Of a stretch of 48,914 nucleotides of DNA, positions 1,640-45,116 are shown in pieces. How positions within the stretch are numbered: position 1 is the first letter of the stretch; every line of letters begins with the position of its first letter. This stretch comes from a phage, in sequence record PZ445533.1. The stretch is one strand, 5' to 3'. Below the pieces are notes generated by a model. It was not told where the DNA came from, searched no databases, and saw only the letters and a list, made by a program, of their open reading frames with translations. The position numbers and the translations under genes were made by a program.

Positions 1640-2932
1640 ATGAGCGAAAAAACAAGGCTAGTTAAGGCCGATGGATACAACGAGATTTTCAAGGGTAGTA
1701 AGGGCAATGGGCGTGTAGAGTTGCCTTTCTTTATGCAGGGGTTCGAATACACCACGCACGCTGATTTTTACATTCGTGACGGCCTAGCAAAACGAATCAT
1801 CGACGTTGTTCCAGAAGAAATGGTGACGCCTGGATTTAATATTGATGGCGTGGAAGATGAGGAGAGTTTTAGATCTTTGTGGGATGAGAAGCGACTAAAC
1901 GATAAAATCATTGATGCGCTTTGCTGGTCGCGTCTTTTTGGTGGCGCTGCAATCGTGGCAATCGTTCAGGATGGCAGGTCGTTAAAGTCACCTGTAGCGC
2001 CTGGTGCAATCCTTGAAGATGTTCGCGTTTACGATCGCTTTCAGGTTAGGGTAGAAAAGCGCGAAACTAATCCACGCAAGGTAAGATATGGTGAGCCATT
2101 AATTTACACCATTTCACCTGGTGTCGACTTGCCAGAATACCAGGTTCACTATTCGCGAGTCTGTATTATCGACGGTGAGCGACTACCAAATCAGCGGCGT
2201 CAATCAAATGATGGGTGGGGTGAGTCGATCCTGAATAAGGGACTTGTTGAGGCTATTTGTGATTATAACTACTGCGAAAACTTAGCAACTCAATTGTTGC
2301 GACGTAAGCAACAGGCGGTATGGAAAGTTAAAGGTCTTGCTGATCTTTGTGATGATGATGATGGTGTTAGTGCCGCACGTTTGCGACTTGCTCAAGTTGA
2401 TGATGAGGGTGGCGTAGGCCGTGCGATCGGCATTGATGCGGAAGATGAGGAATATGATGTTTTAAATTCTGATATTTCTGCCGTCGATTCGTTCTTGGAA
2501 AAGAAGATGGATCGCATTGTATCTCTTTCCGGCATCCATGAAATCATCCTCAAAAACAAGAACGTTGGCGGTGTTAGCGCGAGCCAAAACACGGCGCTTG
2601 AAACCTTCTACAAGCTGATCGACCGAAAGCGAAAGGAAGAATACAAACCAATCCTTGAATTTCTGATCCCGTTCCTTATTCAAGAGGAAGAATGGAGCAT
2701 TCAGTTTGCGCCGTTAAGCGTTCCAAGCGAAAAGGACCAGGCCGAAATCTTGAACAAGAACATTGATTCTTTGAGTAAGGCTATTGACGGTCAATTCATG
2801 GATGCAGAAGAGGCGCGCGACACATTGCGAGCCATTGCGCCTAACGTTAAACTAAAAGACGGCAATGACATTAAATTACCTGAGCAAGACGTAGAGCCGG
2901 AGCCAGGAACAACAGAGGGTAGCAATCAATGA
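1640..2932 (+). CDS. Portal protein
   Basis: 430 aa ORF directly after terL, GGAG RBS 9 nt upstream of ATG 1640; position and size typical of portal; stop overlaps next start (ATGA). Confidence 0.6.
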   Translation: MSEKTRLVKADGYNEIFKGSKGNGRVELPFFMQGFEYTTHADFYIRDGLAKRIIDVVPEEMVTPGFNIDGVEDEESFRSLWDEKRLNDKIIDALCWSRLFGGAAIVAIVQDGRSLKSPVAPGAILEDVRVYDRFQVRVEKRETNPRKVRYGEPLIYTISPGVDLPEYQVHYSRVCIIDGERLPNQRRQSNDGWGESILNKGLVEAICDYNYCENLATQLLRRKQQAVWKVKGLADLCDDDDGVSAARLRLAQVDDEGGVGRAIGIDAEDEEYDVLNSDISAVDSFLEKKMDRIVSLSGIHEIILKNKNVGGVSASQNTALETFYKLIDRKRKEEYKPILEFLIPFLIQEEEWSIQFAPLSVPSEKDQAEILNKNIDSLSKAIDGQFMDAEEARDTLRAIAPNVKLKDGNDIKLPEQDVEPEPGTTEGSNQ

Positions 2933-3684
2933 TAGTGAAAGGCGTCGTTAAACAATGGCGCTTTCCTGAAGCAAGCGAGCGGCAATTGCGCCGCTCAATT
3001 CAGGAGGCGATAAGGGATCTTGTTGTGCTGATGCGCAGCAAAACAAAGGAAATGAAATTTGACGCGGACACCGAAGAAATCAACGCCGCAGAGGATGAGA
3101 TTAGTAGCTTCGCGTTAAAGCTAATAGCTGGCATCGCCGCATCACTTCCGGCTATCGGTCTTGCTGTTTATAAATTCAACGCGAAGCAATTTATTAACGT
3201 AGCCAAATCAACGGGAGGCAAGTCAAATTCAGCCGTTATCATCCTTATGGCTATTGGGGCCAATGCGAATGAGAGTTGGTATAGGACGCTATACGGTCAA
3301 TGGCATGACATGACGATCGCATCTCTTCAAAAGCTATTTGGAAACATCGTGTCTGACTGGTCAACCAATATTAGATTGGCAAACTTTCGCGGAATGAGAG
3401 ATAGCCAGGTTAATGAATTGGCTGGTAAGAGGTTCGCAGTGTATAGCTCTTGGGGTAAGACAAGGGCGGAAAACATCATAGGCGCTTGGAATAGTAGACT
3501 CATGCGCCAGCGTCTTTATGATTCAAAAGTAACTCATTATTTTTGGCATGGTATGCTTGATGACAGAGAGCGATTGCAGCATGTACAATGGGAAGGTAAG
3601 CGCATTGCGCTAGATTCTGAACATGATTTTCCTGGTGAGCCTTTCGGTTGTCGTTGTTGGGCCATACCAGATTGGAACAGTTAA
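2929..3684 (+). CDS. Head morphogenesis / minor head protein (SPP1 gp7 / Mu F-like position)
   Basis: 251 aa ORF translationally coupled to portal; synteny. Confidence 0.5.
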   Translation: MIVKGVVKQWRFPEASERQLRRSIQEAIRDLVVLMRSKTKEMKFDADTEEINAAEDEISSFALKLIAGIAASLPAIGLAVYKFNAKQFINVAKSTGGKSNSAVIILMAIGANANESWYRTLYGQWHDMTIASLQKLFGNIVSDWSTNIRLANFRGMRDSQVNELAGKRFAVYSSWGKTRAENIIGAWNSRLMRQRLYDSKVTHYFWHGMLDDRERLQHVQWEGKRIALDSEHDFPGEPFGCRCWAIPDWNS

Positions 3685-3694
3685 GAGGTATTAA

Positions 3695-4810
3695 ATGAAG
3701 GCAAAACAAAGATTTGATAGCGCCAAAGTAAAGGCGCACTTTGATGATAACGGGTTTTTAGTTGATCGCCCTATCGTGGCGCGAATTGGTTTACAAGTCT
3801 ATCAGACTCCTTTCGGTGAGCGCCGAGAATTTCGCCCTGCGTCAGAAGTATTCAAGGCCGACTCGCTCGCCACCTTTGCAGGGAAGCCGGTCACGGTTGG
3901 TCACGTCACGGTAACGCCAGAAAACGCCGAAAAGGTTGTAGTTGGTTCTTGTGCTGGCGCTGGTGTGCCGAACGGGATCGGCGTAGAGGTTCCGTTAAGC
4001 ATTTACTCAAAACGAGCAATCGAAAGCGCAAAGAAGCGAGACACGGCGGAAATTTCAGTTGGTTATACATCGGTTGATATTGATAAACCAGGCTGGGGCA
4101 ATAATAAAACTGGTGAGTACGTTTTCGATGAGGACGTTAGCGAAGACTGGAAACCTGATTCTCCTGATTGGGTTAAGTTTGATGCAATCCAGACTGAAAT
4201 CAAGGTAAACCACATCGCGTTAGTTTTCCGAGGTCGAGCTGGCATTGCAAAATTAAACCTTGATAGCCAGCAAGATTTTCCGTATAGTGACGACGTTATT
4301 AACAACAAAGAGGATCAAATCATGACTGTAAAAATTAAACTGGATGGCGCTGTAGAGTTTGACGTGCCGAAAGCGGTTGCGGATCACATTGAATCACTGA
4401 AAGCTGATACCAAAGCGCAGAAAGAAAAGGCTGACAGCCTGGAAGCTGAGCGAGACGCACTGCAAACCAAAGTAGATGGCATTCAGGATCAGATTGATGC
4501 CGCAGTCAAGAAGGCCAAAGAAGATGCCGAGCAATATGCTCAATTAGTGGCGGACGCTAAAGAGTTAGGCATCAAGTGCGACGGCCTGGATGCGAAAGCA
4601 ATCAAGGTTGCATACATCAAGGAAGTTATGGGCAATGACGTTTCTGATAAAACTGATGCCTATATCGAAACAGCTTTCGACATCGCCAAAAACTCTGATA
4701 AAATGGCGGCGCAGCGTAAGAGCATTAAAGGTGACTCTTTCGCGAATGAAAAGCAGGATGACGCAGGTTCTAAGCTGAATCCTAACGCTCGTTTTGAGAA
4801 ACTGAAATAA
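3695..4810 (+). CDS. Prohead protease / scaffold fusion (putative)
   Basis: 371 aa; N-terminal GKPVTVGHV and S-x-GY motifs resembling HK97-type prohead protease, C-terminal charged coiled-coil typical of scaffold; AAGAGG RBS. Confidence 0.45.
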   Translation: MKAKQRFDSAKVKAHFDDNGFLVDRPIVARIGLQVYQTPFGERREFRPASEVFKADSLATFAGKPVTVGHVTVTPENAEKVVVGSCAGAGVPNGIGVEVPLSIYSKRAIESAKKRDTAEISVGYTSVDIDKPGWGNNKTGEYVFDEDVSEDWKPDSPDWVKFDAIQTEIKVNHIALVFRGRAGIAKLNLDSQQDFPYSDDVINNKEDQIMTVKIKLDGAVEFDVPKAVADHIESLKADTKAQKEKADSLEAERDALQTKVDGIQDQIDAAVKKAKEDAEQYAQLVADAKELGIKCDGLDAKAIKVAYIKEVMGNDVSDKTDAYIETAFDIAKNSDKMAAQRKSIKGDSFANEKQDDAGSKLNPNARFEKLK

Positions 4811-21169: not shown

Positions 21170-22225
21170 ATGAGTGATTTTAACGCCTACACTAGCGAAG
21201 AAATGAGCAACGAGCTTTATCATGATCCTAACGCGTGGACGGCTGAATATGTCAGCGGTTCCAGCCTGGCGGAGATTTACAGCACTTGCCCGGCGTACTG
21301 GAAGTACAAGCCGCGCCAGGAAACTAAAGCACTTGTTTTCGGTACGCAGTCGCATACCAACTTTGAAAGCAAGGAGCTATTCGAAAAAACATATCGCCGC
21401 GCACCGTCGCAGGATGATTTTAAAGATCTGATCACTAGCCAAACGGCGTTAGCATCAAAGCTGAAATCTTTTGGCCTGAAAGGTACAACGGGTAAACAAT
21501 ACCCTGAATTACTGGAAATGCTGTACAAGTGCGGCGAGGATCTCAATGTGTGGTGGCTTATCGAAATGATGGCAGAATGCCAGGCCGCAGCGGACGGAGT
21601 GCAGTTAATAGACGCTAAAGATTATGATGCCTGTGTAGCGATGCGGCGCGTACTTGAGGCCATACCGGAGCATAACGCTTGCATGAACAGCCCAACCGCG
21701 CAGCGTGAAATGTCAATATTTGGGATCATCAACGGCGTAAAAGTAAAAGTGCGTCTTGATCACGTTGACGTAAACAAGGATGTAAAGGCAACAATCATTA
21801 ACGGTTACGACGAAAAAGGCAGGCCGATTTATGAAGAAGTCACCTATCCAGAAGCGGTGATTATCACTGACTACAAAACAACGGTTAGCGCAAATCCGGT
21901 TGACTTCCAGCGCCTGGCTTACAATCACGGCTATTATCTTAAAATGGCTTTGCAACATGACTTATTCAAAAAGGCGTATCCAGACGAGGAAAGGCCAGTA
22001 ATTGTAAGATTGCTTGCGCAGGAGAAGAAAGAGCCTTACTTGCCGCTTGCTTTCCGCATGAATATTGAGCAATTGAAGATCGGGCGAATCCAGTACATGA
22101 GCGTGATCAACAAGTTCAACGTTTGCCAGCAGTTAGACGAATGGCCTTCGTATGCAAACGGGCAACCGGAAATTGATCTTGATACTCCTGATTGGGTACG
22201 CGCTCAATTCAGGCAGTATCTATAA
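21170..22225 (+). CDS. PD-(D/E)XK family exonuclease (RecE/RecB-like recombination nuclease)
   Basis: 351 aa; hhhDYKT motif (VIITDYKTT) with upstream acidic residues; first gene after sigma70-like promoter, followed by Erf and SSB. Confidence 0.55.
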   Translation: MSDFNAYTSEEMSNELYHDPNAWTAEYVSGSSLAEIYSTCPAYWKYKPRQETKALVFGTQSHTNFESKELFEKTYRRAPSQDDFKDLITSQTALASKLKSFGLKGTTGKQYPELLEMLYKCGEDLNVWWLIEMMAECQAAADGVQLIDAKDYDACVAMRRVLEAIPEHNACMNSPTAQREMSIFGIINGVKVKVRLDHVDVNKDVKATIINGYDEKGRPIYEEVTYPEAVIITDYKTTVSANPVDFQRLAYNHGYYLKMALQHDLFKKAYPDEERPVIVRLLAQEKKEPYLPLAFRMNIEQLKIGRIQYMSVINKFNVCQQLDEWPSYANGQPEIDLDTPDWVRAQFRQYL

Positions 22226-22297
22226 CAAACTAAACAAATAGCTAAACTTTTATAATGGTTGGTGATATAATTCGACAGCCAGATAACGGGAGAATGA

Positions 22298-22954
<657 letters not shown>

Positions 22955-22997
22955 TAAACGGGGCGCTTGCGCCCCTTTTGTCATAGGAGAAAACAAA

Positions 22998-23450
22998 ATG
23001 CACGTTATTACAGGTGAGATTCGAAAAGAGCCAAAAGTAAAGCAAATGCCTAACGGCAGCACGCTATATGTTATTGAGCTTTCCGAACGATATAAAGATC
23101 GTGAAGGAAATTGGCAGTATACAAACTATGTGTTTTTCTTTAACGCGAAAACAGACGGCCTGAATGGTTGGTATGCTGAGGCGTTCCAGGTAGGCAAGGT
23201 TATTTCTGTTTCCTGCGATACCTTGCGAGTTGAAACGCGAGAATACAACGGAAAGATTTACAGCACCGTGCAGCCTGGCGGATTTGCAAACTTGCTATTT
23301 AGCCAGAGAGGTGAAAGCCAGCAACAATATCAGCAGCGAACGCAAGGAGGATGGGGGCAACCACAACAGCAACAGCAACAAAATACTCAACAGCAGCCGC
23401 AGCAAAGCAATCAGCCTCCGATTGACTTTGACGACGATATACCATTCTGA
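22998..23450 (+). CDS. ssb: Single-stranded DNA-binding protein
   Basis: OB-fold-like N-terminus, Gln-rich linker, acidic C-terminal tail DFDDDIPF. Confidence 0.8.
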   Translation: MHVITGEIRKEPKVKQMPNGSTLYVIELSERYKDREGNWQYTNYVFFFNAKTDGLNGWYAEAFQVGKVISVSCDTLRVETREYNGKIYSTVQPGGFANLLFSQRGESQQQYQQRTQGGWGQPQQQQQQNTQQQPQQSNQPPIDFDDDIPF

Positions 23451-40949: not shown

Positions 40950-41485
40950 ACGGTTAGCACCAGGATTGTGATCGAAATAATCAAAAGTAATCATTCGTAA
41001 TCAAATCACGTCAAAATGATGATTGCCTTTGCAAATTTGATGAGAAAAGTAATCACGTTTAATCATTGGTTGCAGGGGAGATAGTGAAACCCTCCACTCT
41101 TGCCTCACTTTTCCGCCTGGCTGTCAGTGGTTGTTATGTTCCGTTCCCGCCTGTTCTTTTGTTGACCTTCCGCAAAATACGATAACAAAAAATAACAAAC
41201 AATACCTATATAATACATTGAAAAATAAGGATTATTTATTTATATGTATCTATATATTCTCTTTTGTTATCTTGGTTATTGTGGTATTTGGTGGGGGTAT
41301 ATAGTTTTTGTGTATCTGTATGTGTGTATGGGTATGTAGGGGCATATATATCTATATGGCACTTTCCGCGAGAAAACTTCGATAACAGGCAATGATAACA
41401 TTGATTTATAAGGAAAAATAACGCCCATATTGTTATTGTGCCACCATATAAAATTGATAAAACACGCGGGAACAAGAAAAAACAG
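40950..41485. repeat. AT-rich divergent control region B, homologous to region A, with (G)TAATCA iteron-like repeats
   Basis: Five TAATCA copies 40975-41075; shared blocks TTATTTATTTAT, GTATCTGTATGTG, GGGAACAAGAAAAA with region A. Confidence 0.5.
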
Positions 41486-41514
41486 TTGACACATTAAATA
41501 GCATTATTGATAAT
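41486..41514 (+). promoter_or_regulatory. Sigma70-like promoter (TTGACA-17-GATAAT) for rightward operon
   Basis: TTGACA 41486-41491, 17-nt spacer, GATAAT 41509-41514, RBS AGGAGG and ATG 41544 downstream. Confidence 0.6.
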
Positions 41515-41543
41515 GCCGACACCTAACAACCAGGAGGTAGAAA

Positions 41544-42008
41544 ATGAGCGAGCAATCATTCACTGACACGCTGCGCCGTGCAGCTATTATGCTGGCTAAT
41601 GGCGAGGAAGAGACGATCAAGATTCCTGACGCGTATTTGCAGGTCCACATGTTCGGCAAGAAGTCGGCAAGCAATCCGGCGGCCTACATTCGCCAGATCA
41701 TGAGTCGAGTGCCAGAAGTCGCCGAGCGGGGGCGCGTATCCGTTACCCGTGGCGTTTACGGGCCGGAAGATGAAAACTTCGGTAGCACTTTCTACGAGGT
41801 GCGGATTGTTGAAGGCCGTCGCAAGGTTTACAACAAAGAGGCACTGGAAAGGGCAGTGCGCCAGGCTAAGCGCAAGGTTGCAGAGGCGATCATTGATATG
41901 TCACCAAACCTGGCAAACTATGCGCCGGAAGAGTACGAAACATTATCAAAGGCCGTCGCTGACTTTCACGCGATGATCAAAAAAACTTTCCTGGAGGATG
42001 AGCAATGA
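41544..42008 (+). CDS. Hypothetical protein, first gene of rightward operon
   Basis: 154 aa; AGGAGG RBS; canonical sigma70-like promoter about 30 bp upstream. Confidence 0.6.
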   Translation: MSEQSFTDTLRRAAIMLANGEEETIKIPDAYLQVHMFGKKSASNPAAYIRQIMSRVPEVAERGRVSVTRGVYGPEDENFGSTFYEVRIVEGRRKVYNKEALERAVRQAKRKVAEAIIDMSPNLANYAPEEYETLSKAVADFHAMIKKTFLEDEQ

Positions 42009-42277
42009 AAAAGGCATTAATCAGCGTTTTGGCGGCAATGGCATTCCTGACCGGATGCAAAGAAGATGGCGCGCATGTTGGCAATGTGCAGATGGCTAAC
42101 CCTGGTGATGACTACAGCGTAAGGGAGCTATTCACCGCTGACGGTTGCACCGTTTACCGATTCTATGACGATCGCACTGTTTACTTCACCAACTGCAAGG
42201 GCACTACTAGCTGGGAAGTGTCGAAAAGCAATGGCAAAGGCACGAAGACAGAACATATGACCGTCGAGACAAAATAG
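42005..42277 (+). CDS. Lipoprotein (second superinfection-exclusion candidate)
   Basis: 90 aa; signal peptide and lipobox LTGC; ATGA overlap with upstream gene; stop TAG within motif. Confidence 0.55.
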   Translation: MKKALISVLAAMAFLTGCKEDGAHVGNVQMANPGDDYSVRELFTADGCTVYRFYDDRTVYFTNCKGTTSWEVSKSNGKGTKTEHMTVETK

Positions 42278-42335
42278 CACTTTTTGTTAAAACTCAAATG
42301 TGGGGCCAGGTATAATGGCCTCACTTTCAACGAGA
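42272..42335 (+). promoter_or_regulatory. Motif cassette
   Basis: Motif with TAG stop of lipoprotein gene; hairpin GGCC...GGCC with TATAAT in loop, 21 nt after TTGTTA. Confidence 0.5.
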
Positions 42336-42346
42336 GGGGAAACGCG

Positions 42347-42574
42347 ATGGAAAGTTTAATCATCCAGAAGAAAATGAAGTGCGTCAGTGTAGCGCCAGGT
42401 TGCGGCTTTATGTTCACGGTGGGAAATATCTACTCCGCGCAGAAGATGAGAACATCAACCGGATCGTTTTACGTCAATAATAATCAGGGATTCCGCATGT
42501 TCCTGAACGGTCAAAGTGGCAACGAAATTTGCGCTTACGCCGACCTTATCGCAACCTTTGAGGAAGTGAAATAA
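42347..42574 (+). CDS. Hypothetical protein
   Basis: 75 aa from ATG 42347 with GAGGGG RBS downstream of motif cassette. Confidence 0.45.
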   Translation: MESLIIQKKMKCVSVAPGCGFMFTVGNIYSAQKMRTSTGSFYVNNNQGFRMFLNGQSGNEICAYADLIATFEEVK

Positions 42575-42987
42575 TGGATGACTGCATGCCGTTTCCTGGA
42601 TATAGAAATAAAGATGGTTACGGTCAGGTTTGCATAAATGGTGTAGTTGTTGGTGCTCACGGGTTAGCATATTGCAGAGCTAACAACCTTTCACTTAATG
42701 ATATACGTGGAATGGTTGTAAGGCATAGGTGTGATAATCCGCCGTGCTGCAATCCTGATCATTTGGAGATAGGAACGCAAAGGGATAACGTTATTGATTG
42801 CATAAAGCGAGGAAGGTTTAAAAGTAATGCTGGTGTTAATAATCCAAGAGCAAAATTGAATTACGACACAGCAGAAGAGATTCGCAAAGAGTACGCTAGC
42901 GGCGTAGTGTCTATGGGGGCGCTAGCTGAGAAATACATGGTTGGTAAAAGCACAATAAAAAGAGTTATTGACCGGAGCATTTGGTGA
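42574..42987 (+). CDS. HNH homing endonuclease
   Basis: HRCDNPPCCNPDHLEIGTQRDN HNH motif with Cys pairs; free-standing between small genes. Confidence 0.75.
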   Translation: MDDCMPFPGYRNKDGYGQVCINGVVVGAHGLAYCRANNLSLNDIRGMVVRHRCDNPPCCNPDHLEIGTQRDNVIDCIKRGRFKSNAGVNNPRAKLNYDTAEEIRKEYASGVVSMGALAEKYMVGKSTIKRVIDRSIW

Positions 42988-43526
42988 TGAAAATTTATAC
43001 ATTTGAACTATGGGGCAATAAGTACGAATTTACGACAAGCAAGCCTATTGTTGTGTGCGATCTCGACGGCACGCTATCGGACGGATCGCATCGTTTGCAC
43101 TTGCTGCCAACCGAAAACTTGCACCTTACGGAATCGTGGAGCGAATTTAACAGGGCAGCCGCCGCAGATTCACCGATTAAGAGCACGATTGCTGTTATCA
43201 ATGGTTTGTGGGTATCTGGCTTTGCCGTCGTTATCCTTACCGGACGCAGCGACGAAGTGCGCTATGAAACATGTAAATGGCTGAATGAGAACGGCGTGAA
43301 GTTTGACGAAATCATCATGCGTCGCCAGCAGGACAACCGAAAGGATACGGTTATTAAAGAAGAAGCCTTGCGCGCTATTGGATTGGGCAACATTGTTTGC
43401 GCCTTTGACGATTCTCCGAATGTGGTTAAGCACTTCCGAAGCCTGGGGATCACAACCTATCAGGTCACGGAATACGACAAGCCACACGCTCACCTGCAAT
43501 CTCACGGCGTGGAGTGTTTAAAATGA
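42987..43526 (+). CDS. HAD-family phosphatase (nucleotidase or polynucleotide 3'-phosphatase-like)
   Basis: DxDGT motif (VVCDLDGTL) at N-terminus, later hhhhTGR and FDD motifs typical of HAD fold; TGATG overlap with HNH gene. Confidence 0.6.
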   Translation: MKIYTFELWGNKYEFTTSKPIVVCDLDGTLSDGSHRLHLLPTENLHLTESWSEFNRAAAADSPIKSTIAVINGLWVSGFAVVILTGRSDEVRYETCKWLNENGVKFDEIIMRRQQDNRKDTVIKEEALRAIGLGNIVCAFDDSPNVVKHFRSLGITTYQVTEYDKPHAHLQSHGVECLK

Positions 43527-43684
43527 CTTGGTTGCTTTTAATCTTTGTCACAAGTTACAACTCCGCAGCTATTGAGTCGCAGGAGTTCCACGGCGAATCA
43601 AGATGCCAGGAAGCGCGAAAGCAAGTTGTTCTCCACATGTCAGATAGTGGGAAGGATGTAACAGCGTTATGCGTTCGTAAATAG
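43523..43684 (+). CDS. Small protein with N-terminal hydrophobic/signal-like segment (53 aa)
   Basis: Own translation MTWLLLIFVTSYNSAAIESQEF...; ATGA overlap with upstream stop; TAG stop is the TAG of the 21-bp motif. Confidence 0.4.
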   Translation: MTWLLLIFVTSYNSAAIESQEFHGESRCQEARKQVVLHMSDSGKDVTALCVRK

Positions 43685-43775
43685 CACTTTTTGTTAAAGC
43701 ATTCCATCGGGCTTGCTTTATAGTAAGCCCATCAACAACGAAAGAGGAAAGCATCATGTTGTTACAGCAGACGAG
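43679..43775 (+). promoter_or_regulatory. Motif cassette
   Basis: Motif, hairpin GGGCTT...AAGCCC with TATAGT in loop, ATCAACAACGAAAGAGGAAA. Confidence 0.5.
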
Positions 43776-43786
43776 GAGACGAAGAA

Positions 43787-44056
43787 ATGACACGCAAAAT
43801 TGAAATATTCCAGGCCATAGACAGAATCGACATGAGGGATTCACTATTCGCTATTGAGTCCATTGATGGCGAAGACGTCGCCTACAACGTAGAGCTGGAT
43901 GAATACAGCTTCGACTGTGTGCGCAAAAAGTTTGCAGATAAAATTGCTATGCAAGGCCGATGCTTGCATAAAGACTCAAGCATAGAGCCTAGACGAAGCG
44001 ACATGATTAATCCAAAACTTGTTGAGACTATTACTTTTGTGGAGAGCAGAAAATGA
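43787..44056 (+). CDS. Hypothetical protein
   Basis: 89 aa downstream of motif cassette; ATGA overlap with kinase gene. Confidence 0.5.
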   Translation: MTRKIEIFQAIDRIDMRDSLFAIESIDGEDVAYNVELDEYSFDCVRKKFADKIAMQGRCLHKDSSIEPRRSDMINPKLVETITFVESRK

Positions 44057-44643
44057 AAAGAGACATCATTATCCTGAATGGGCCACCTGGAGTGGGAAAG
44101 GACACCATTGCGGCATACCTTACCGGACACCAATACCCAGCAGTTAAGGCATCATTCAAACAGCCAATGTTCGATATTGCGTTCTCCATGCTTGGTGTGT
44201 ACAGATACGATGAATTTATGGACTTGTACAACGACCGGGAACAGAAAGAAAAGCCTCAAGTGATATTGCAGGGCAAATCACCGCGTCAGTTCATGATCTG
44301 GATTAGCGAGGAGGTAATGAAGCCAGCATTTGGGGAACAGTATTTCGGCTGGAGAATGGTTGAGCAGATTCACGAAATGTACCGCGACCTTGCAATTATC
44401 GTAACAGACGGCGGCTTTCCAGAAGAAATCAAGCCACTGATTAAAGCAGGTCACAAAGTGCACATTTGCCGACTGCATCGCGAGGGGTACACGTTCGATG
44501 GCGACTCGCGAAACTATATCGACATGGGCGACTATCATCACCGCCTCAAGCATTACGATTTCACGTTGCACGATGGCGAGCCAGAAAAGACGGTGGAGGA
44601 AATCATCGAAACCGTGCAGTGGCATTTCACAAAAATCAAATAG
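44053..44643 (+). CDS. P-loop nucleotide kinase (dNMP-kinase-like, GKDT motif)
   Basis: N-terminal IILNGPPGVGKDT Walker A resembling phage deoxynucleoside-monophosphate kinases; stop TAG within motif variant. Confidence 0.6.
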   Translation: MKRDIIILNGPPGVGKDTIAAYLTGHQYPAVKASFKQPMFDIAFSMLGVYRYDEFMDLYNDREQKEKPQVILQGKSPRQFMIWISEEVMKPAFGEQYFGWRMVEQIHEMYRDLAIIVTDGGFPEEIKPLIKAGHKVHICRLHREGYTFDGDSRNYIDMGDYHHRLKHYDFTLHDGEPEKTVEEIIETVQWHFTKIK

Positions 44644-44705
44644 CACGAATTGCTAAACGCGGGGCGCAATGCTCCGCTATAATTTACCCCGTTCAGTAAA
44701 CATAG
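44639..44705 (+). promoter_or_regulatory. Motif cassette (variant box AAATAGCACGAATTGCTAAA)
   Basis: Variant box containing kinase stop TAG, GC hairpin, TATAAT 22 nt after TTGCTA. Confidence 0.45.
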
Positions 44706-44714
44706 GAATCAACA

Positions 44715-45116
44715 ATGTTAGAGCTAAGCAATATCCGCACCGGAACAAAATTTCGCGTAACCTGGGCAGACGAAAAATGCGGCCTTCGTCGTGGTGAGAT
44801 TGTAACCGCCCAATCCCGTTACATCGGCAGACTGGAGAACTACAAGCGCCCACGCATTAAATTCGGCTACATCATCACCGATAGCCTGGGATTCGACAAT
44901 TACGTGATCAAGTCCAGCACCGGAATCATCGCAGACCTTAAGCGAATCCGTAATCATCGCGGCTGTCACATAAAGACCATGAAAACACCATTCCAGAACG
45001 CCCGATACGATGCGCGACGTATGCGCCGACTTGCTCGCAACGCCTGTAAGTTCAAGAAGACTGGCGATGATTTTTACAAAACCTACCAGGGGATCGCGCG
45101 CAATGCTGGCAAATAA
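44715..45116 (+). CDS. Hypothetical basic protein
   Basis: 133 aa downstream of motif cassette. Confidence 0.5.
   Translation: MLELSNIRTGTKFRVTWADEKCGLRRGEIVTAQSRYIGRLENYKRPRIKFGYIITDSLGFDNYVIKSSTGIIADLKRIRNHRGCHIKTMKTPFQNARYDARRMRRLARNACKFKKTGDDFYKTYQGIARNAGK

What the first reader, a model, noticed from the sequence alone, without database searches (positions are those of the whole stretch)
42574..44643. Free-standing HNH endonuclease next to a nucleotide-metabolism pair (HAD phosphatase + dNMP-kinase-like)
An HNH endonuclease (HRCDN...CCNPDHLEIGTQRDN) is inserted between small early genes and overlaps the start of a HAD phosphatase (DLDGT); two genes later is a P-loop kinase with a GKDT motif. 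HNH genes in T1-like phages are typically mobile homing endonucleases; the phosphatase/kinase pair could recycle host-DNA-derived nucleotides or heal nucleic-acid ends.
Basis: partly seen in the sequence, partly recalled or inferred. Interest (0 to 1): 0.4.

Follow-up and report, generated by a model that had tools for sequence, protein, structure and literature searches.

The report
Homing HNH nuclease beside phage phosphatase
A small selfish nuclease gene sits exactly in front of a conserved phosphatase gene of a T1-like coliphage and has carried the first 81 bases of that gene with it between phages; this is a clean but ordinary case of a homing endonuclease, and the neighbouring phosphatase and nucleotide-kinase genes are standard equipment of this phage family.

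Summary
The window is a near-complete Warwickvirus-like T1-type coliphage. It encodes an intact 137-aa HNH nuclease (42574-42987), a 179-aa HAD phosphatase (42987-43526) and a 196-aa P-loop kinase (44053-44643).

The HNH is I-HmuI-like, with a nuclease domain and a C-terminal helix-turn-helix. Among about 130 related phage records it occurs only in tonijn and one other group (8 records). Of 80 IMG/VR phosphatase loci, one carries it.

It is inserted exactly at the phosphatase start codon, and phage JakobBernoulli shows the empty site.

In three different genetic backgrounds the first ~81 nt of the phosphatase gene travel with the HNH. Window and tonijn share HNH plus tract almost identically, although their flanks belong to different alleles.

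Every HNH-linked phosphatase allele reads GTGTGC (Val-Cys) just before the catalytic DLDGT; none of 68 HNH-less alleles does.

This is the signature of "intronless homing", with a target in the 5' end of the phosphatase gene. Cleavage itself is untested.

The phosphatase is only the phosphatase half of a polynucleotide kinase-phosphatase. The kinase folds most like T4 dNMP kinase. The two genes are syntenic across the family. A role in nucleotide salvage is plausible but unproven.

Verdict: a new member of a known kind, of modest interest.

The parts
42272..42333 (+). Conserved promoter-like intergenic element (TTGTTA/TTAAAA ... TATAAT, 42284-42316). It is present in several copies in relatives.
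   Evidence: Sequence read. The promoter scan lists 42287-42316 (10 of 12 matches), but such sites are no more frequent than in shuffles. The same 27-62 nt recur at several places in relatives' early regions.
42348..42574 (+). 75-aa small early ORF, forming the left flank of the cassette slot.
   Evidence: 100% identical to ExeQuayColi, and 99.6% to tunus and XY3, up to base 42575, where similarity stops. It is only about 64% identical to the tonijn allele.
42557..42573 (+). Conserved left junction TTTGAGGAAGTGAAATA: the end of the small ORF plus a Shine-Dalgarno-like GAGGA that serves whichever gene follows.
   Evidence: The same string precedes the HNH ATG (window, tonijn), the phosphatase ATG (JakobBernoulli, empty site) and other cassettes (ExeQuayColi, Poky).
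42574..42987 (+). Free-standing HNH endonuclease gene (137 aa): an N-terminal HNH_3 nuclease with a Cys/His cluster, and a C-terminal helix-turn-helix.
42987..43067 (+). Co-conversion tract: the first 81 nt of the phosphatase gene, which travel with the HNH.
   Evidence: Window vs MatMar: 17 of 26 mismatches fall in nt 1-81. tonijn vs Poky: 17 of 19. E6 vs JLBYU09: 24 of 49. The binomial p values, computed for mismatches within nt 1-90, are 4e-8, 7e-12 and 2e-7. Window vs tonijn shows only 3 mismatches in nt 1-90 but 45 in the rest.
43053..43058 (+). GTGTGC (Val23-Cys24), immediately before the catalytic Asp25 codon. This is the HNH-linked allele signature and a candidate immunity or target position.
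   Evidence: Present in every HNH-linked phosphatase allele (window, tonijn, E6, L009/L177, L174, L175) and in 0 of 68 HNH-less alleles, which read IV, IF, II or VV. An exact-pattern scan of IMG/VR finds only the HNH-carrying contig.
42987..43526 (+). HAD-superfamily phosphatase of the PNKP phosphatase-domain type (179 aa), with no kinase domain.
   Evidence: HAD_PNKP at 1.2e-20. PDB sequence hits cover only the phosphatase domains of Pnkp1 4xrp (residues 180-308) and T4 Pnk 1ltq/5uj0. D25, D27, G28, T29, T85, K119, D141 and D142 are invariant in 82 homologues.
43523..43684 (+). 53-aa ORF with a hydrophobic N-terminus, overlapping the phosphatase stop.
   Evidence: ORF list. Annotated in Jahat and MatMar. 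Matches phrog_5579 of unknown function.
43787..44056 (+). 89-aa ORF of unknown function. Its stop overlaps the kinase start.
44053..44643 (+). P-loop nucleotide kinase, dNMP-kinase-like (196 aa).
44659..44677 (+). Terminator-like G+C-rich hairpin after the kinase gene.
   Evidence: Consensus scan only. Such sites are not enriched over shuffles.
21170..23450 (+). Phage recombination genes (RecE-like exonuclease VIII, Erf-like annealase, SSB) that could repair an HNH-made break from a co-infecting genome.
   Evidence: phrog_412 at 2.7e-96, phrog_155 at 2.8e-44 and phrog_44 at 2.6e-22. Their involvement in homing is inferred.

Best explanation
The 137-aa gene is a free-standing, I-HmuI-like HNH homing endonuclease. 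It occupies a variable cassette slot immediately upstream of the phosphatase gene ('pnk') of a Warwickvirus-like T1-type coliphage.

Shown:
- The gene is intact and is rare among relatives.
- It is inserted exactly at the pnk start codon.
- It uses the ribosome-binding site that serves pnk in the empty-site phage. Its own 3' end supplies a GGAG and an overlapping TGATG for pnk.
- In three genetic backgrounds it is linked to a diverged first ~81 nt of pnk.

Inferred:
- In a mixed infection the enzyme nicks or cuts the HNH-less pnk allele within its first ~80 nt. That stretch encodes the start of the protein and the strand leading into the catalytic DxDGT motif.
- The phage's RecE-like exonuclease, Erf annealase and SSB repair the break from the HNH-carrying genome. 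This copies the HNH and co-converts pnk nt 1-81.
- The HNH-linked allele (GTGTGC, Val-Cys in place of ATCGTT, Ile-Val, plus changes at nt 6-18) is resistant to cutting.

The two enzymes next to it are host-independent core early genes, not part of the mobile element:
- a stand-alone PNKP-type HAD phosphatase, which is not a polynucleotide kinase;
- a T4-gp1-like dNMP kinase.

The kinase most likely feeds dNMPs released from degraded host DNA back into phage DNA synthesis. The phosphatase most likely removes 3'-phosphates from DNA ends or nucleotides produced in that breakdown. These functions are inferred from family membership and from the known T1 habit of recycling host DNA.
For: Identity:
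- Pfam and PHROG matches, invariant catalytic and Cys/His residues, and an I-HmuI top fold match followed by HTH domains.

Sporadic distribution:
- 8 of about 130 related INPHARED records, all of them tonijn or the E6 group.
- One contig among 80 IMG/VR pnk loci.

Same site in diverged lineages:
- HNH homologues of 75-80% identity all lie directly upstream of HAD_PNKP genes in E. coli-type and Klebsiella-type contigs.

Exact boundaries:
- The empty site in JakobBernoulli reads ...GAGGAAGTGAAATA|ATGAAAAAATAC.
- The window reads ...GAGGAAGTGAAATA|ATGGATGAC...TTTGGTG|ATGAAAATT.

Recent transfer:
- Window vs tonijn shows 2 mismatches in 414 nt of HNH and 3 in pnk nt 1-90.
- The same pair is about 64% identical in the upstream ORF and has 45 mismatches in the rest of pnk.

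Replicated co-conversion tract:
- Seen in window/MatMar, tonijn/Poky and E6/JLBYU09.

Allele signature:
- GTGTGC is found in all HNH-linked alleles and in 0 of 68 HNH-less alleles.
- HNH-less alleles share one pnk 5' end whatever cassette precedes them.

Repair machinery:
- Recombination genes are present in the window.

Phosphatase:
- HAD_PNKP match, PDB hits to phosphatase domains only, and invariant motifs.

Kinase:

Background:
- T1 and TLS degrade the host chromosome and reuse its nucleotides (PMC11447400).
- HNH genes are sporadic in Drexlerviridae, and the PNK plus dNMP kinase genes are read as a nucleotide-supply module (PMC13164509).
- The properties of intronless homing are reviewed in PMC2988022.
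Against: - No cleavage site has been mapped, so the target position is inferred only from allele patterns.
- The HNH and its flanking tract are physically linked. The Val-Cys signature could therefore be a hitchhiking ancestral polymorphism rather than an immunity change.
- The left boundary shows no graded tract. Only about 17-20 nt of shared sequence lie there, so simple double-strand-break repair does not obviously explain it.
- The same slot boundaries are used by unrelated small-ORF cassettes, so ordinary recombination also shuffles this site.
- One 72%-identical HNH relative (L176) is not next to a pnk gene.
- The kinase has no significant sequence match to any Pfam, NCBIfam or PDB kinase family beyond the P-loop.
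- The phosphatase substrate is unknown.
Confidence: 0.75

Rival explanations
1. The HNH gene is a passive, possibly inactive passenger. The mosaic pattern arises from ordinary homologous recombination at the conserved boundaries of a cassette slot, with no endonuclease-driven homing.
For: - The slot between the small ORF and pnk holds at least four unrelated alternatives plus an empty state.
- All of them are bounded by the same TTTGAGGARGTGAAATA on the left and the pnk ATG on the right.
- Repeated promoter-like elements in this early region are associated with other indels.
Against: - Non-HNH cassettes do not bring a diverged pnk 5' end. ExeQuayColi, Poky, JK16, MatMar and JakobBernoulli share the same pnk nt 1-81 type within their genus whatever precedes it.
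- The diverged tract is seen only with the HNH, and in three backgrounds.
- The HNH ORF is intact with invariant catalytic residues.
- It is 99.5% identical between two phages whose flanks differ by 8-36%.
Confidence: 0.12
2. The HNH is a functional phage nuclease retained for the phage's own benefit, for example host-DNA degradation or DNA packaging, rather than a selfish element.
For: - T1-type phages degrade host DNA and the responsible nuclease is unidentified (PMC11447400).
- HNH proteins assist terminases in some phages (own knowledge).
Against: - It is absent from the closest relatives and from the vast majority of Drexlerviridae, so it cannot be needed for a family-wide trait.
- It lies in the early region, far from the terminase gene at base 1.
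- Its architecture is that of sequence-specific homing enzymes: nuclease plus HTH, I-HmuI-like.
Confidence: 0.05
3. The phosphatase and the P-loop kinase together form a split polynucleotide kinase-phosphatase. It would heal broken RNA or DNA ends, for example after cleavage by a host anticodon nuclease or another defence nuclease, rather than salvage nucleotides.
For: - The phosphatase is homologous specifically to PNKP phosphatase domains.
- The two genes are syntenic in 89 of 89 loci and adjacent or overlapping in 28, as expected for partners.
Against: - Viral structural neighbours are mostly annotated as dNMP kinases.
- No RNA or DNA ligase is annotated in the closely related MatMar genome.
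- One contig carries the kinase with no phosphatase gene in the 4.5 kb held.
Confidence: 0.15

Closest known systems
Free-standing homing endonucleases of T-even phages (T4 SegF, SegG and MobE; 'intronless homing'; PMC2988022, PMC2790892)
   Same: - A stand-alone endonuclease gene placed between conserved genes.
- Patchy distribution among close relatives.
- An inferred target in a neighbouring gene.
- Co-conversion of flanking sequence, which spreads linked markers.
- MobE is likewise an HNH domain fused to a separate DNA-binding region.
   Different: - The host is a T1-type siphovirus rather than a T4-type myovirus.
- The tract is very short (about 81 nt) and one-sided.
- The inferred target lies within about 80 nt of the insertion point. 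That is closer than the hundreds to thousands of base pairs typical of T4 free-standing enzymes, and more like an intron-encoded enzyme.
- There is no biochemical or genetic proof here.
I-HmuI (Bacillus phage SPO1 intron-encoded HNH homing endonuclease, PDB 1u3e)
   Same: - Both have an N-terminal HNH nuclease followed by an extended region and a C-terminal helix-turn-helix.
   Different: - I-HmuI is intron-encoded, 174 aa, and nicks one strand of the DNA polymerase gene.
- This protein is 137 aa, free-standing, and carries an invariant Cys/His cluster (C4, C53, C58, H63) typical of HNH_3 and zf-His_Me_endon.
- The match is modest.
Phosphatase domain of T4 polynucleotide kinase-phosphatase (PseT, PDB 1ltq/5uj0) and Capnocytophaga Pnkp1 (4xrp)
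   Same: Same HAD subfamily (Pfam HAD_PNKP), with the DxDGT, T, K and DD motifs conserved.
   Different: - It is a stand-alone 179-aa protein with no 5'-kinase domain, so the database label 'polynucleotide kinase' is a misnomer.
- No ligase partner is annotated in the close relative MatMar.
T4 gp1 deoxynucleoside monophosphate kinase (PDB 1dek) and the phage dNMP kinases grouped in PHROG 139
   Same: - The P-loop ends in GKDT.
- It is an early gene in a phage that reuses host nucleotides (PMC11447400).
   Different: - Only 18% identity.
- No detectable sequence match to curated kinase families.
- Substrate range is untested.

Membership tests
HNH (beta-beta-alpha-Me) endonuclease, HNH_3 / I-HmuI-like | Sequence match to the HNH_3 profile above the curated threshold | tested here: met
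   PF13392 at 29.1 bits against a cutoff of 24.8, PF05551 at 27.3 against 27, and phrog_6254 at 1.4e-29.
HNH (beta-beta-alpha-Me) endonuclease, HNH_3 / I-HmuI-like | Conserved catalytic His and Asn residues and metal-binding Cys/His residues | tested here: met
   H51, C53, D54, N55, C58, N72, D75 and C4 are invariant, and H63 and N60 are at least 90% conserved, in 49 homologues.
HNH (beta-beta-alpha-Me) endonuclease, HNH_3 / I-HmuI-like | Nuclease fold plus a separate DNA-binding module | tested here: met
   [not shown]
HNH (beta-beta-alpha-Me) endonuclease, HNH_3 / I-HmuI-like | Metal-dependent DNA nicking or cleavage | not testable with these tools
   Needs purified protein.
Free-standing homing endonuclease gene (intronless homing) | Patchy presence among otherwise closely related genomes | tested here: met
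   Absent from Jahat, MatMar, JK16, ExeQuayColi, tunus and Poky. Present in tonijn and the E6 group, which is 8 of about 130 records. Present in one contig among 80 IMG/VR pnk loci.
Free-standing homing endonuclease gene (intronless homing) | Precise insertion with an identifiable empty site | tested here: met
   JakobBernoulli has the small-ORF stop directly overlapping the pnk ATG. In the window, 413 nt are inserted at exactly that point.
Free-standing homing endonuclease gene (intronless homing) | Co-conversion of flanking host-gene sequence with the endonuclease gene | tested here: met
   pnk nt 1-81 is linked to the HNH in three backgrounds (p values 4e-8 to 7e-12). Window and tonijn share HNH plus tract on different pnk alleles.
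Free-standing homing endonuclease gene (intronless homing) | Site-specific cleavage of the endonuclease-lacking allele, and resistance of the carrier allele | not testable with these tools
   There is only a correlate: GTGTGC before the DLDGT codons in all HNH-linked alleles and in 0 of 68 HNH-less alleles.
Free-standing homing endonuclease gene (intronless homing) | Over-inheritance in mixed infections, dependent on the nuclease | not testable with these tools
   Needs phage crosses.
HAD phosphatase, PNKP phosphatase-domain subfamily | Profile match and the four HAD catalytic motifs | tested here: met
   PF25109 at 74.5 bits against a cutoff of 27.6. D25-x-D27-G-T29, T85, K119 and D141-D142 are invariant in 82 distinct homologues.
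Bifunctional polynucleotide kinase-phosphatase (the database label 'polynucleotide kinase') | An N-terminal P-loop 5'-kinase domain in the same protein | tested here: not met
   The protein is 179 aa. It aligns only to residues 180-308 of Pnkp1 and to residues 202-298 of T4 Pnk. It has no P-loop.
Bifunctional polynucleotide kinase-phosphatase (split version with the downstream P-loop protein) | The P-loop partner resembles polynucleotide 5'-kinase domains more than nucleotide kinases | tested here: not met
   [not shown]
Phage dNMP kinase (T4 gp1-like) | P-loop kinase fold closest to gp1, and membership of the phage dNMP-kinase family | tested here: met
   [not shown]
Phage dNMP kinase (T4 gp1-like) | Sequence-level match to a curated kinase family or a solved dNMP kinase | tested here: inconclusive
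   Only P-loop-level matches were found in Pfam, NCBIfam and PDB, with either the single sequence or the 40-sequence profile.
Phage dNMP kinase (T4 gp1-like) | Phosphorylation of dNMPs | not testable with these tools
   Needs an enzyme assay.

The most novel reading that the evidence does not exclude
This HNH lineage would be a dedicated parasite of the Drexlerviridae phosphatase gene, with a recognition site covering the codons that lead into the catalytic DxDGT motif. Carrier phages would escape self-cutting through an Ile-Val to Val-Cys recoding next to the active-site aspartate. In mixed infections the element would impose local marker exclusion. It would thereby help create the cassette slot and the mosaic early region seen across E. 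coli and Klebsiella T1-type phages. That would give a tractable model of intronless homing outside the T4 group, with a target only about 70 nt from the insertion point.
Probability: 0.45. Interest if true: 0.4.

Novelty: new member of a known kind. Interest (0 to 1): 0.3.

Why it matters
Homing endonucleases are thought to drive much of the mosaicism of phage genomes, but mapped cases are mostly from T4-type and Bacillus phages.

Here the comparative data alone define four things in a T1-type phage:
- an empty site;
- the exact insertion point;
- an 81-nt co-conversion tract seen in three independent backgrounds;
- a candidate target and immunity position.

That makes a direct experiment easy to design. 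The element could also be a simple tool for marker exchange in T1-type phages.

The analysis also corrects a widespread annotation: the 'polynucleotide kinase' of Drexlerviridae is only a phosphatase. It further shows that this phosphatase gene and the dNMP-kinase-like gene form an ancient syntenic pair. None of this changes current understanding of how such systems work.

Tried and rejected
- **Kinase against PDB sequences.** Searches with the single sequence and with a 40-sequence profile gave only generic P-loop matches. NCBIfam gave nothing above threshold for any of the three proteins.
- **HNH against PDB sequences.** The search gave only chance hits. The fold search was needed instead.
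- **A second copy of this HNH family in the window.** None was found.
- **Further copies in the window of the repeated promoter-like element.** Only one copy is present.
- **Promoter and terminator scans.** Sites are no more frequent than in shuffled sequence, so transcription signals are only suggestive.
- **A co-conversion tract in the Klebsiella-type lineage.** The nearest HNH-less relative (P-K7R) is too diverged, with about 25% mismatches throughout.
- **The 'HNH endonuclease' labels on three small ORFs of phage phiE31-2, including the homologue of window 44715-45116.** These got no Pfam or PHROG support and were set aside.
- **The idea that the long (236-237 aa) phosphatase form is a fusion with the window's 53-aa ORF.** Rejected, because the extension and the ORF are unrelated.
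- **Literature.** Searches found no paper describing this particular HNH-phosphatase association.
Full report
**What the window is.**
- The 3.7 kb around the finding matches about 130 phage records, all T1-type (Drexlerviridae, subfamily Tempevirinae). The closest are the Warwickvirus phages Jahat_MG145 and MatMar, at 98% identity downstream of the HNH.
- The window starts at the large terminase gene and is almost a whole genome.
- The finding lies in a rightward block of small early genes that starts after an A+T-rich divergent region near 41000-41500.

**The observation.**
- All three ORFs and all quoted motifs are present at the stated coordinates.
- The gene order on the + strand is: a 75-aa ORF (42348-42574), HNH (42574-42987), HAD phosphatase (42987-43526), a 53-aa ORF (43523-43684), an 89-aa ORF (43787-44056), and the P-loop kinase (44053-44643).
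- Stops and starts overlap: TAATG before the HNH, TGATG before the phosphatase, and ATGA before the kinase.
- Profile matches are strong. HNH: HNH_3 and zf-His_Me_endon above Pfam thresholds, and phrog_6254 at 1e-29. Phosphatase: HAD_PNKP at 1e-20 and phrog_415 at 2e-65. Kinase: phrog_139 at 3e-50.

**The HNH protein.**
- In an alignment of 49 homologues, C4, H51, C53, D54, N55, C58, N72 and D75 are invariant.
- The architecture is therefore a nuclease plus a sequence-reading module, as in homing enzymes.
- Relatives at 35-53% identity are common in T7-type, Acinetobacter, Pseudomonas and mycobacterial phages, where many are annotated as homing endonucleases.

**Distribution.**
- Among phage records, close copies of this HNH exist only in tonijn (99.5% nt) and in a set of 'Campylobacter phage' records that are in fact Hanrivervirus genomes (76%).
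- Of 80 IMG/VR loci retrieved through the phosphatase, only one contig carries it.
- The large protein collection holds four more clusters at 72-80% identity on ~51-kb contigs. Three of them lie directly upstream of a HAD_PNKP gene, including Klebsiella-type phages. One (72%) does not.
- The element is therefore rare, old, and with one exception tied to this one site.

**Insertion boundaries.**
- In ExeQuayColi the upstream small ORF is 100% identical to the window up to base 42575 (99.6% in tunus), where similarity stops. It resumes at the phosphatase ATG (42987).
- In those phages the slot holds a 69-aa ORF. Poky and JK16 have two other ORFs there. Jahat and MatMar have yet others.
- JakobBernoulli has nothing in the slot. 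Its small-ORF stop overlaps the phosphatase start: ...TTTGAGGAAGTGAAATA|ATGAAAAAATAC.
- The window reads ...TTTGAGGAAGTGAAATA|ATGGATGAC...(HNH)...TTTGGTG|ATGAAAATT.
- The HNH thus takes over the ribosome-binding site that serves the phosphatase in the empty-site phage. Its own 3' end supplies a GGAG and an overlapping stop/start for the phosphatase. This arrangement is conserved in the diverged copies.
- In the E6 type the HNH follows the promoter-like element directly, but the right junction is again the phosphatase ATG.

**Co-conversion.**

| Comparison | Result |
|---|---|
| Window vs tonijn, upstream ORF | about 64% identity |
| Window vs tonijn, HNH | 2 mismatches in 414 nt |
| Window vs tonijn, pnk nt 1-90 | 3 mismatches |
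| Window vs tonijn, rest of pnk | 45 mismatches |
| Window vs MatMar, pnk | 17 of 26 mismatches in nt 8-81 |
| tonijn vs Poky, pnk | 17 of 19 mismatches in nt 8-78 |
| E6 vs JLBYU09, pnk | 24 of 49 mismatches in nt 6-78 |

- Apart from its first 81 nt, the window's phosphatase gene is the MatMar/Jahat allele, and tonijn's is the Poky allele.
- The binomial probabilities for clustering in the first sixth of the gene are 4e-8, 7e-12 and 2e-7 respectively.
- HNH-less phages keep one common 5' end whatever cassette precedes it, so the tract is specific to the HNH.
- The tract has low G+C (0.37), as does the HNH (0.42), against 0.50 for the rest of the gene.

**A candidate target.**
- All HNH-linked alleles read GTGTGC (Val-Cys) immediately before the DLDGT codons: window, tonijn, E6, L175, L009/L177 and L174.
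- None of 68 HNH-less alleles does; they read Ile-Val, Ile-Phe, Ile-Ile or Val-Val.
- An exact scan of IMG/VR for the signature returns only the HNH-carrying contig.
- A second cluster of linked changes lies at nt 6-18.
- Homing enzymes often recognise conserved, functionally constrained coding sequence. The strand leading into the catalytic aspartate fits that habit.
- Because the HNH and the tract are linked, the signature could also be inherited baggage. Only a cleavage assay can decide.

**Mechanism.**
- The pattern matches 'intronless homing' as defined for T4 Seg and Mob enzymes: a free-standing endonuclease cuts the allele of a co-infecting phage that lacks it, and repair from the carrier genome copies the gene and converts flanking markers (PMC2988022, PMC2790892).
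- The window encodes a RecE-like exonuclease, an Erf-like annealase and an SSB that could do the repair.
- It differs from the T4 cases in that the inferred target is within about 80 nt of the insertion point and the tract is short and one-sided.
- On the left only about 17-20 nt are shared, so the left junction may rest on that short conserved string or on later recombination.

**The phosphatase.**
- It matches only the phosphatase domains of Pnkp1 and T4 polynucleotide kinase-phosphatase and has no kinase domain.
- All HAD catalytic motifs are invariant in 82 distinct homologues.

**The kinase.**
- Sequence searches see only the P-loop.

**The pair.**
- The kinase gene follows the phosphatase gene in all 89 loci examined, with a gap of 30 nt or less in 28 of them. 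The window has 526 nt and two small ORFs between the two genes.
- T1 and TLS are reported to degrade the host chromosome and reuse its nucleotides (PMC11447400). A recent survey reads the two genes as a nucleotide-supply extension of the replication module (PMC13164509).
- This is the most economical reading. A split end-healing enzyme is a weaker alternative, with no ligase annotated in MatMar.

**Verdict.**
- The genes themselves are already annotated in relatives. What is new is the precise anatomy of the HNH's mobility and its tie to the phosphatase gene.
- It is a new member of a known kind, useful as a ready-made experimental case but not surprising.

Noticed in passing
window 42272-42298 (junction), compared with L005 (JK16) 2385-4151: The window lacks about 1.8 kb that JK16, tonijn, tunus, Poky and others carry between the DUF4884 gene and the 75-aa ORF (three to four ORFs, including an 894-1125-nt one). 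In the relatives the missing segment is bracketed by two copies of the 27-nt promoter-like repeat, and the window has a single copy. This looks like a deletion by recombination between the repeats.
   Followed up: partly
window 43514-43684, compared with L003 (tonijn) 3953-4124, L172, L008 and L175: The phosphatase comes in two forms. The window, Jahat, MatMar, JK16 and tunus have 179 aa followed by a separate 53-aa hydrophobic ORF. tonijn, Poky, JakobBernoulli and L175 have 236-237 aa with a C-terminal extension of about 57 aa (ITKRARFVGSKDS...DGDFVNA). The extension and the 53-aa ORF are unrelated.
   Followed up: partly
L176 1651-2061 (Logan SRR10499707 contig, 51.8 kb): A 72%-identical HNH relative sits in a T1-type contig but is not next to a phosphatase gene. 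A 70-aa membrane-like ORF follows it, and the kinase homologue lies 1.6 kb downstream with no phosphatase gene in the 4.5 kb held. Either the element moved to a new site or the phosphatase was lost there.
   Followed up: partly
L004 (MG065643.1 and five sister records): Records named 'Campylobacter phage E6/A143/C4/A113/A139/A112a' (UNVERIFIED) are classified as Drexlerviridae, genus Hanrivervirus. In this region they match E. coli phages at about 90%. The host label is probably wrong.
   Followed up: no
window 44715-45116 and L169 (phiE31-2) 1576-2014 and 3746-4147: Phage phiE31-2 labels three ORFs as 'HNH endonuclease', including the homologue of the window's 133-aa ORF. That ORF has no Pfam or PHROG match at all and no HNH motif, so the labels look like annotation errors.
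   Followed up: partly
window 43750-43761, compared with L002 (MatMar) 3276-3734: MatMar carries about 460 nt with two extra small ORFs (99 aa and 64 aa) between the 53-aa ORF and the 89-aa ORF. These are absent from the window and from Jahat. It is another small cassette indel in the same early block.
   Followed up: no
window 42005-42277 and 41544-42008: Upstream early genes match families of unknown function. A 90-aa protein with a lipoprotein-like N-terminus (LTGC) matches DUF4884, and a 154-aa protein matches DUF7174. Both are conserved across relatives.
   Followed up: no
window 40950-41550: An A+T-rich stretch (G+C 0.35) with a switch in GC skew separates leftward and rightward gene blocks. 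A near-consensus promoter-like site (TTGACA, 17-nt spacer, GATAAT) lies at 41486-41514, just before the first rightward early gene.
   Followed up: no
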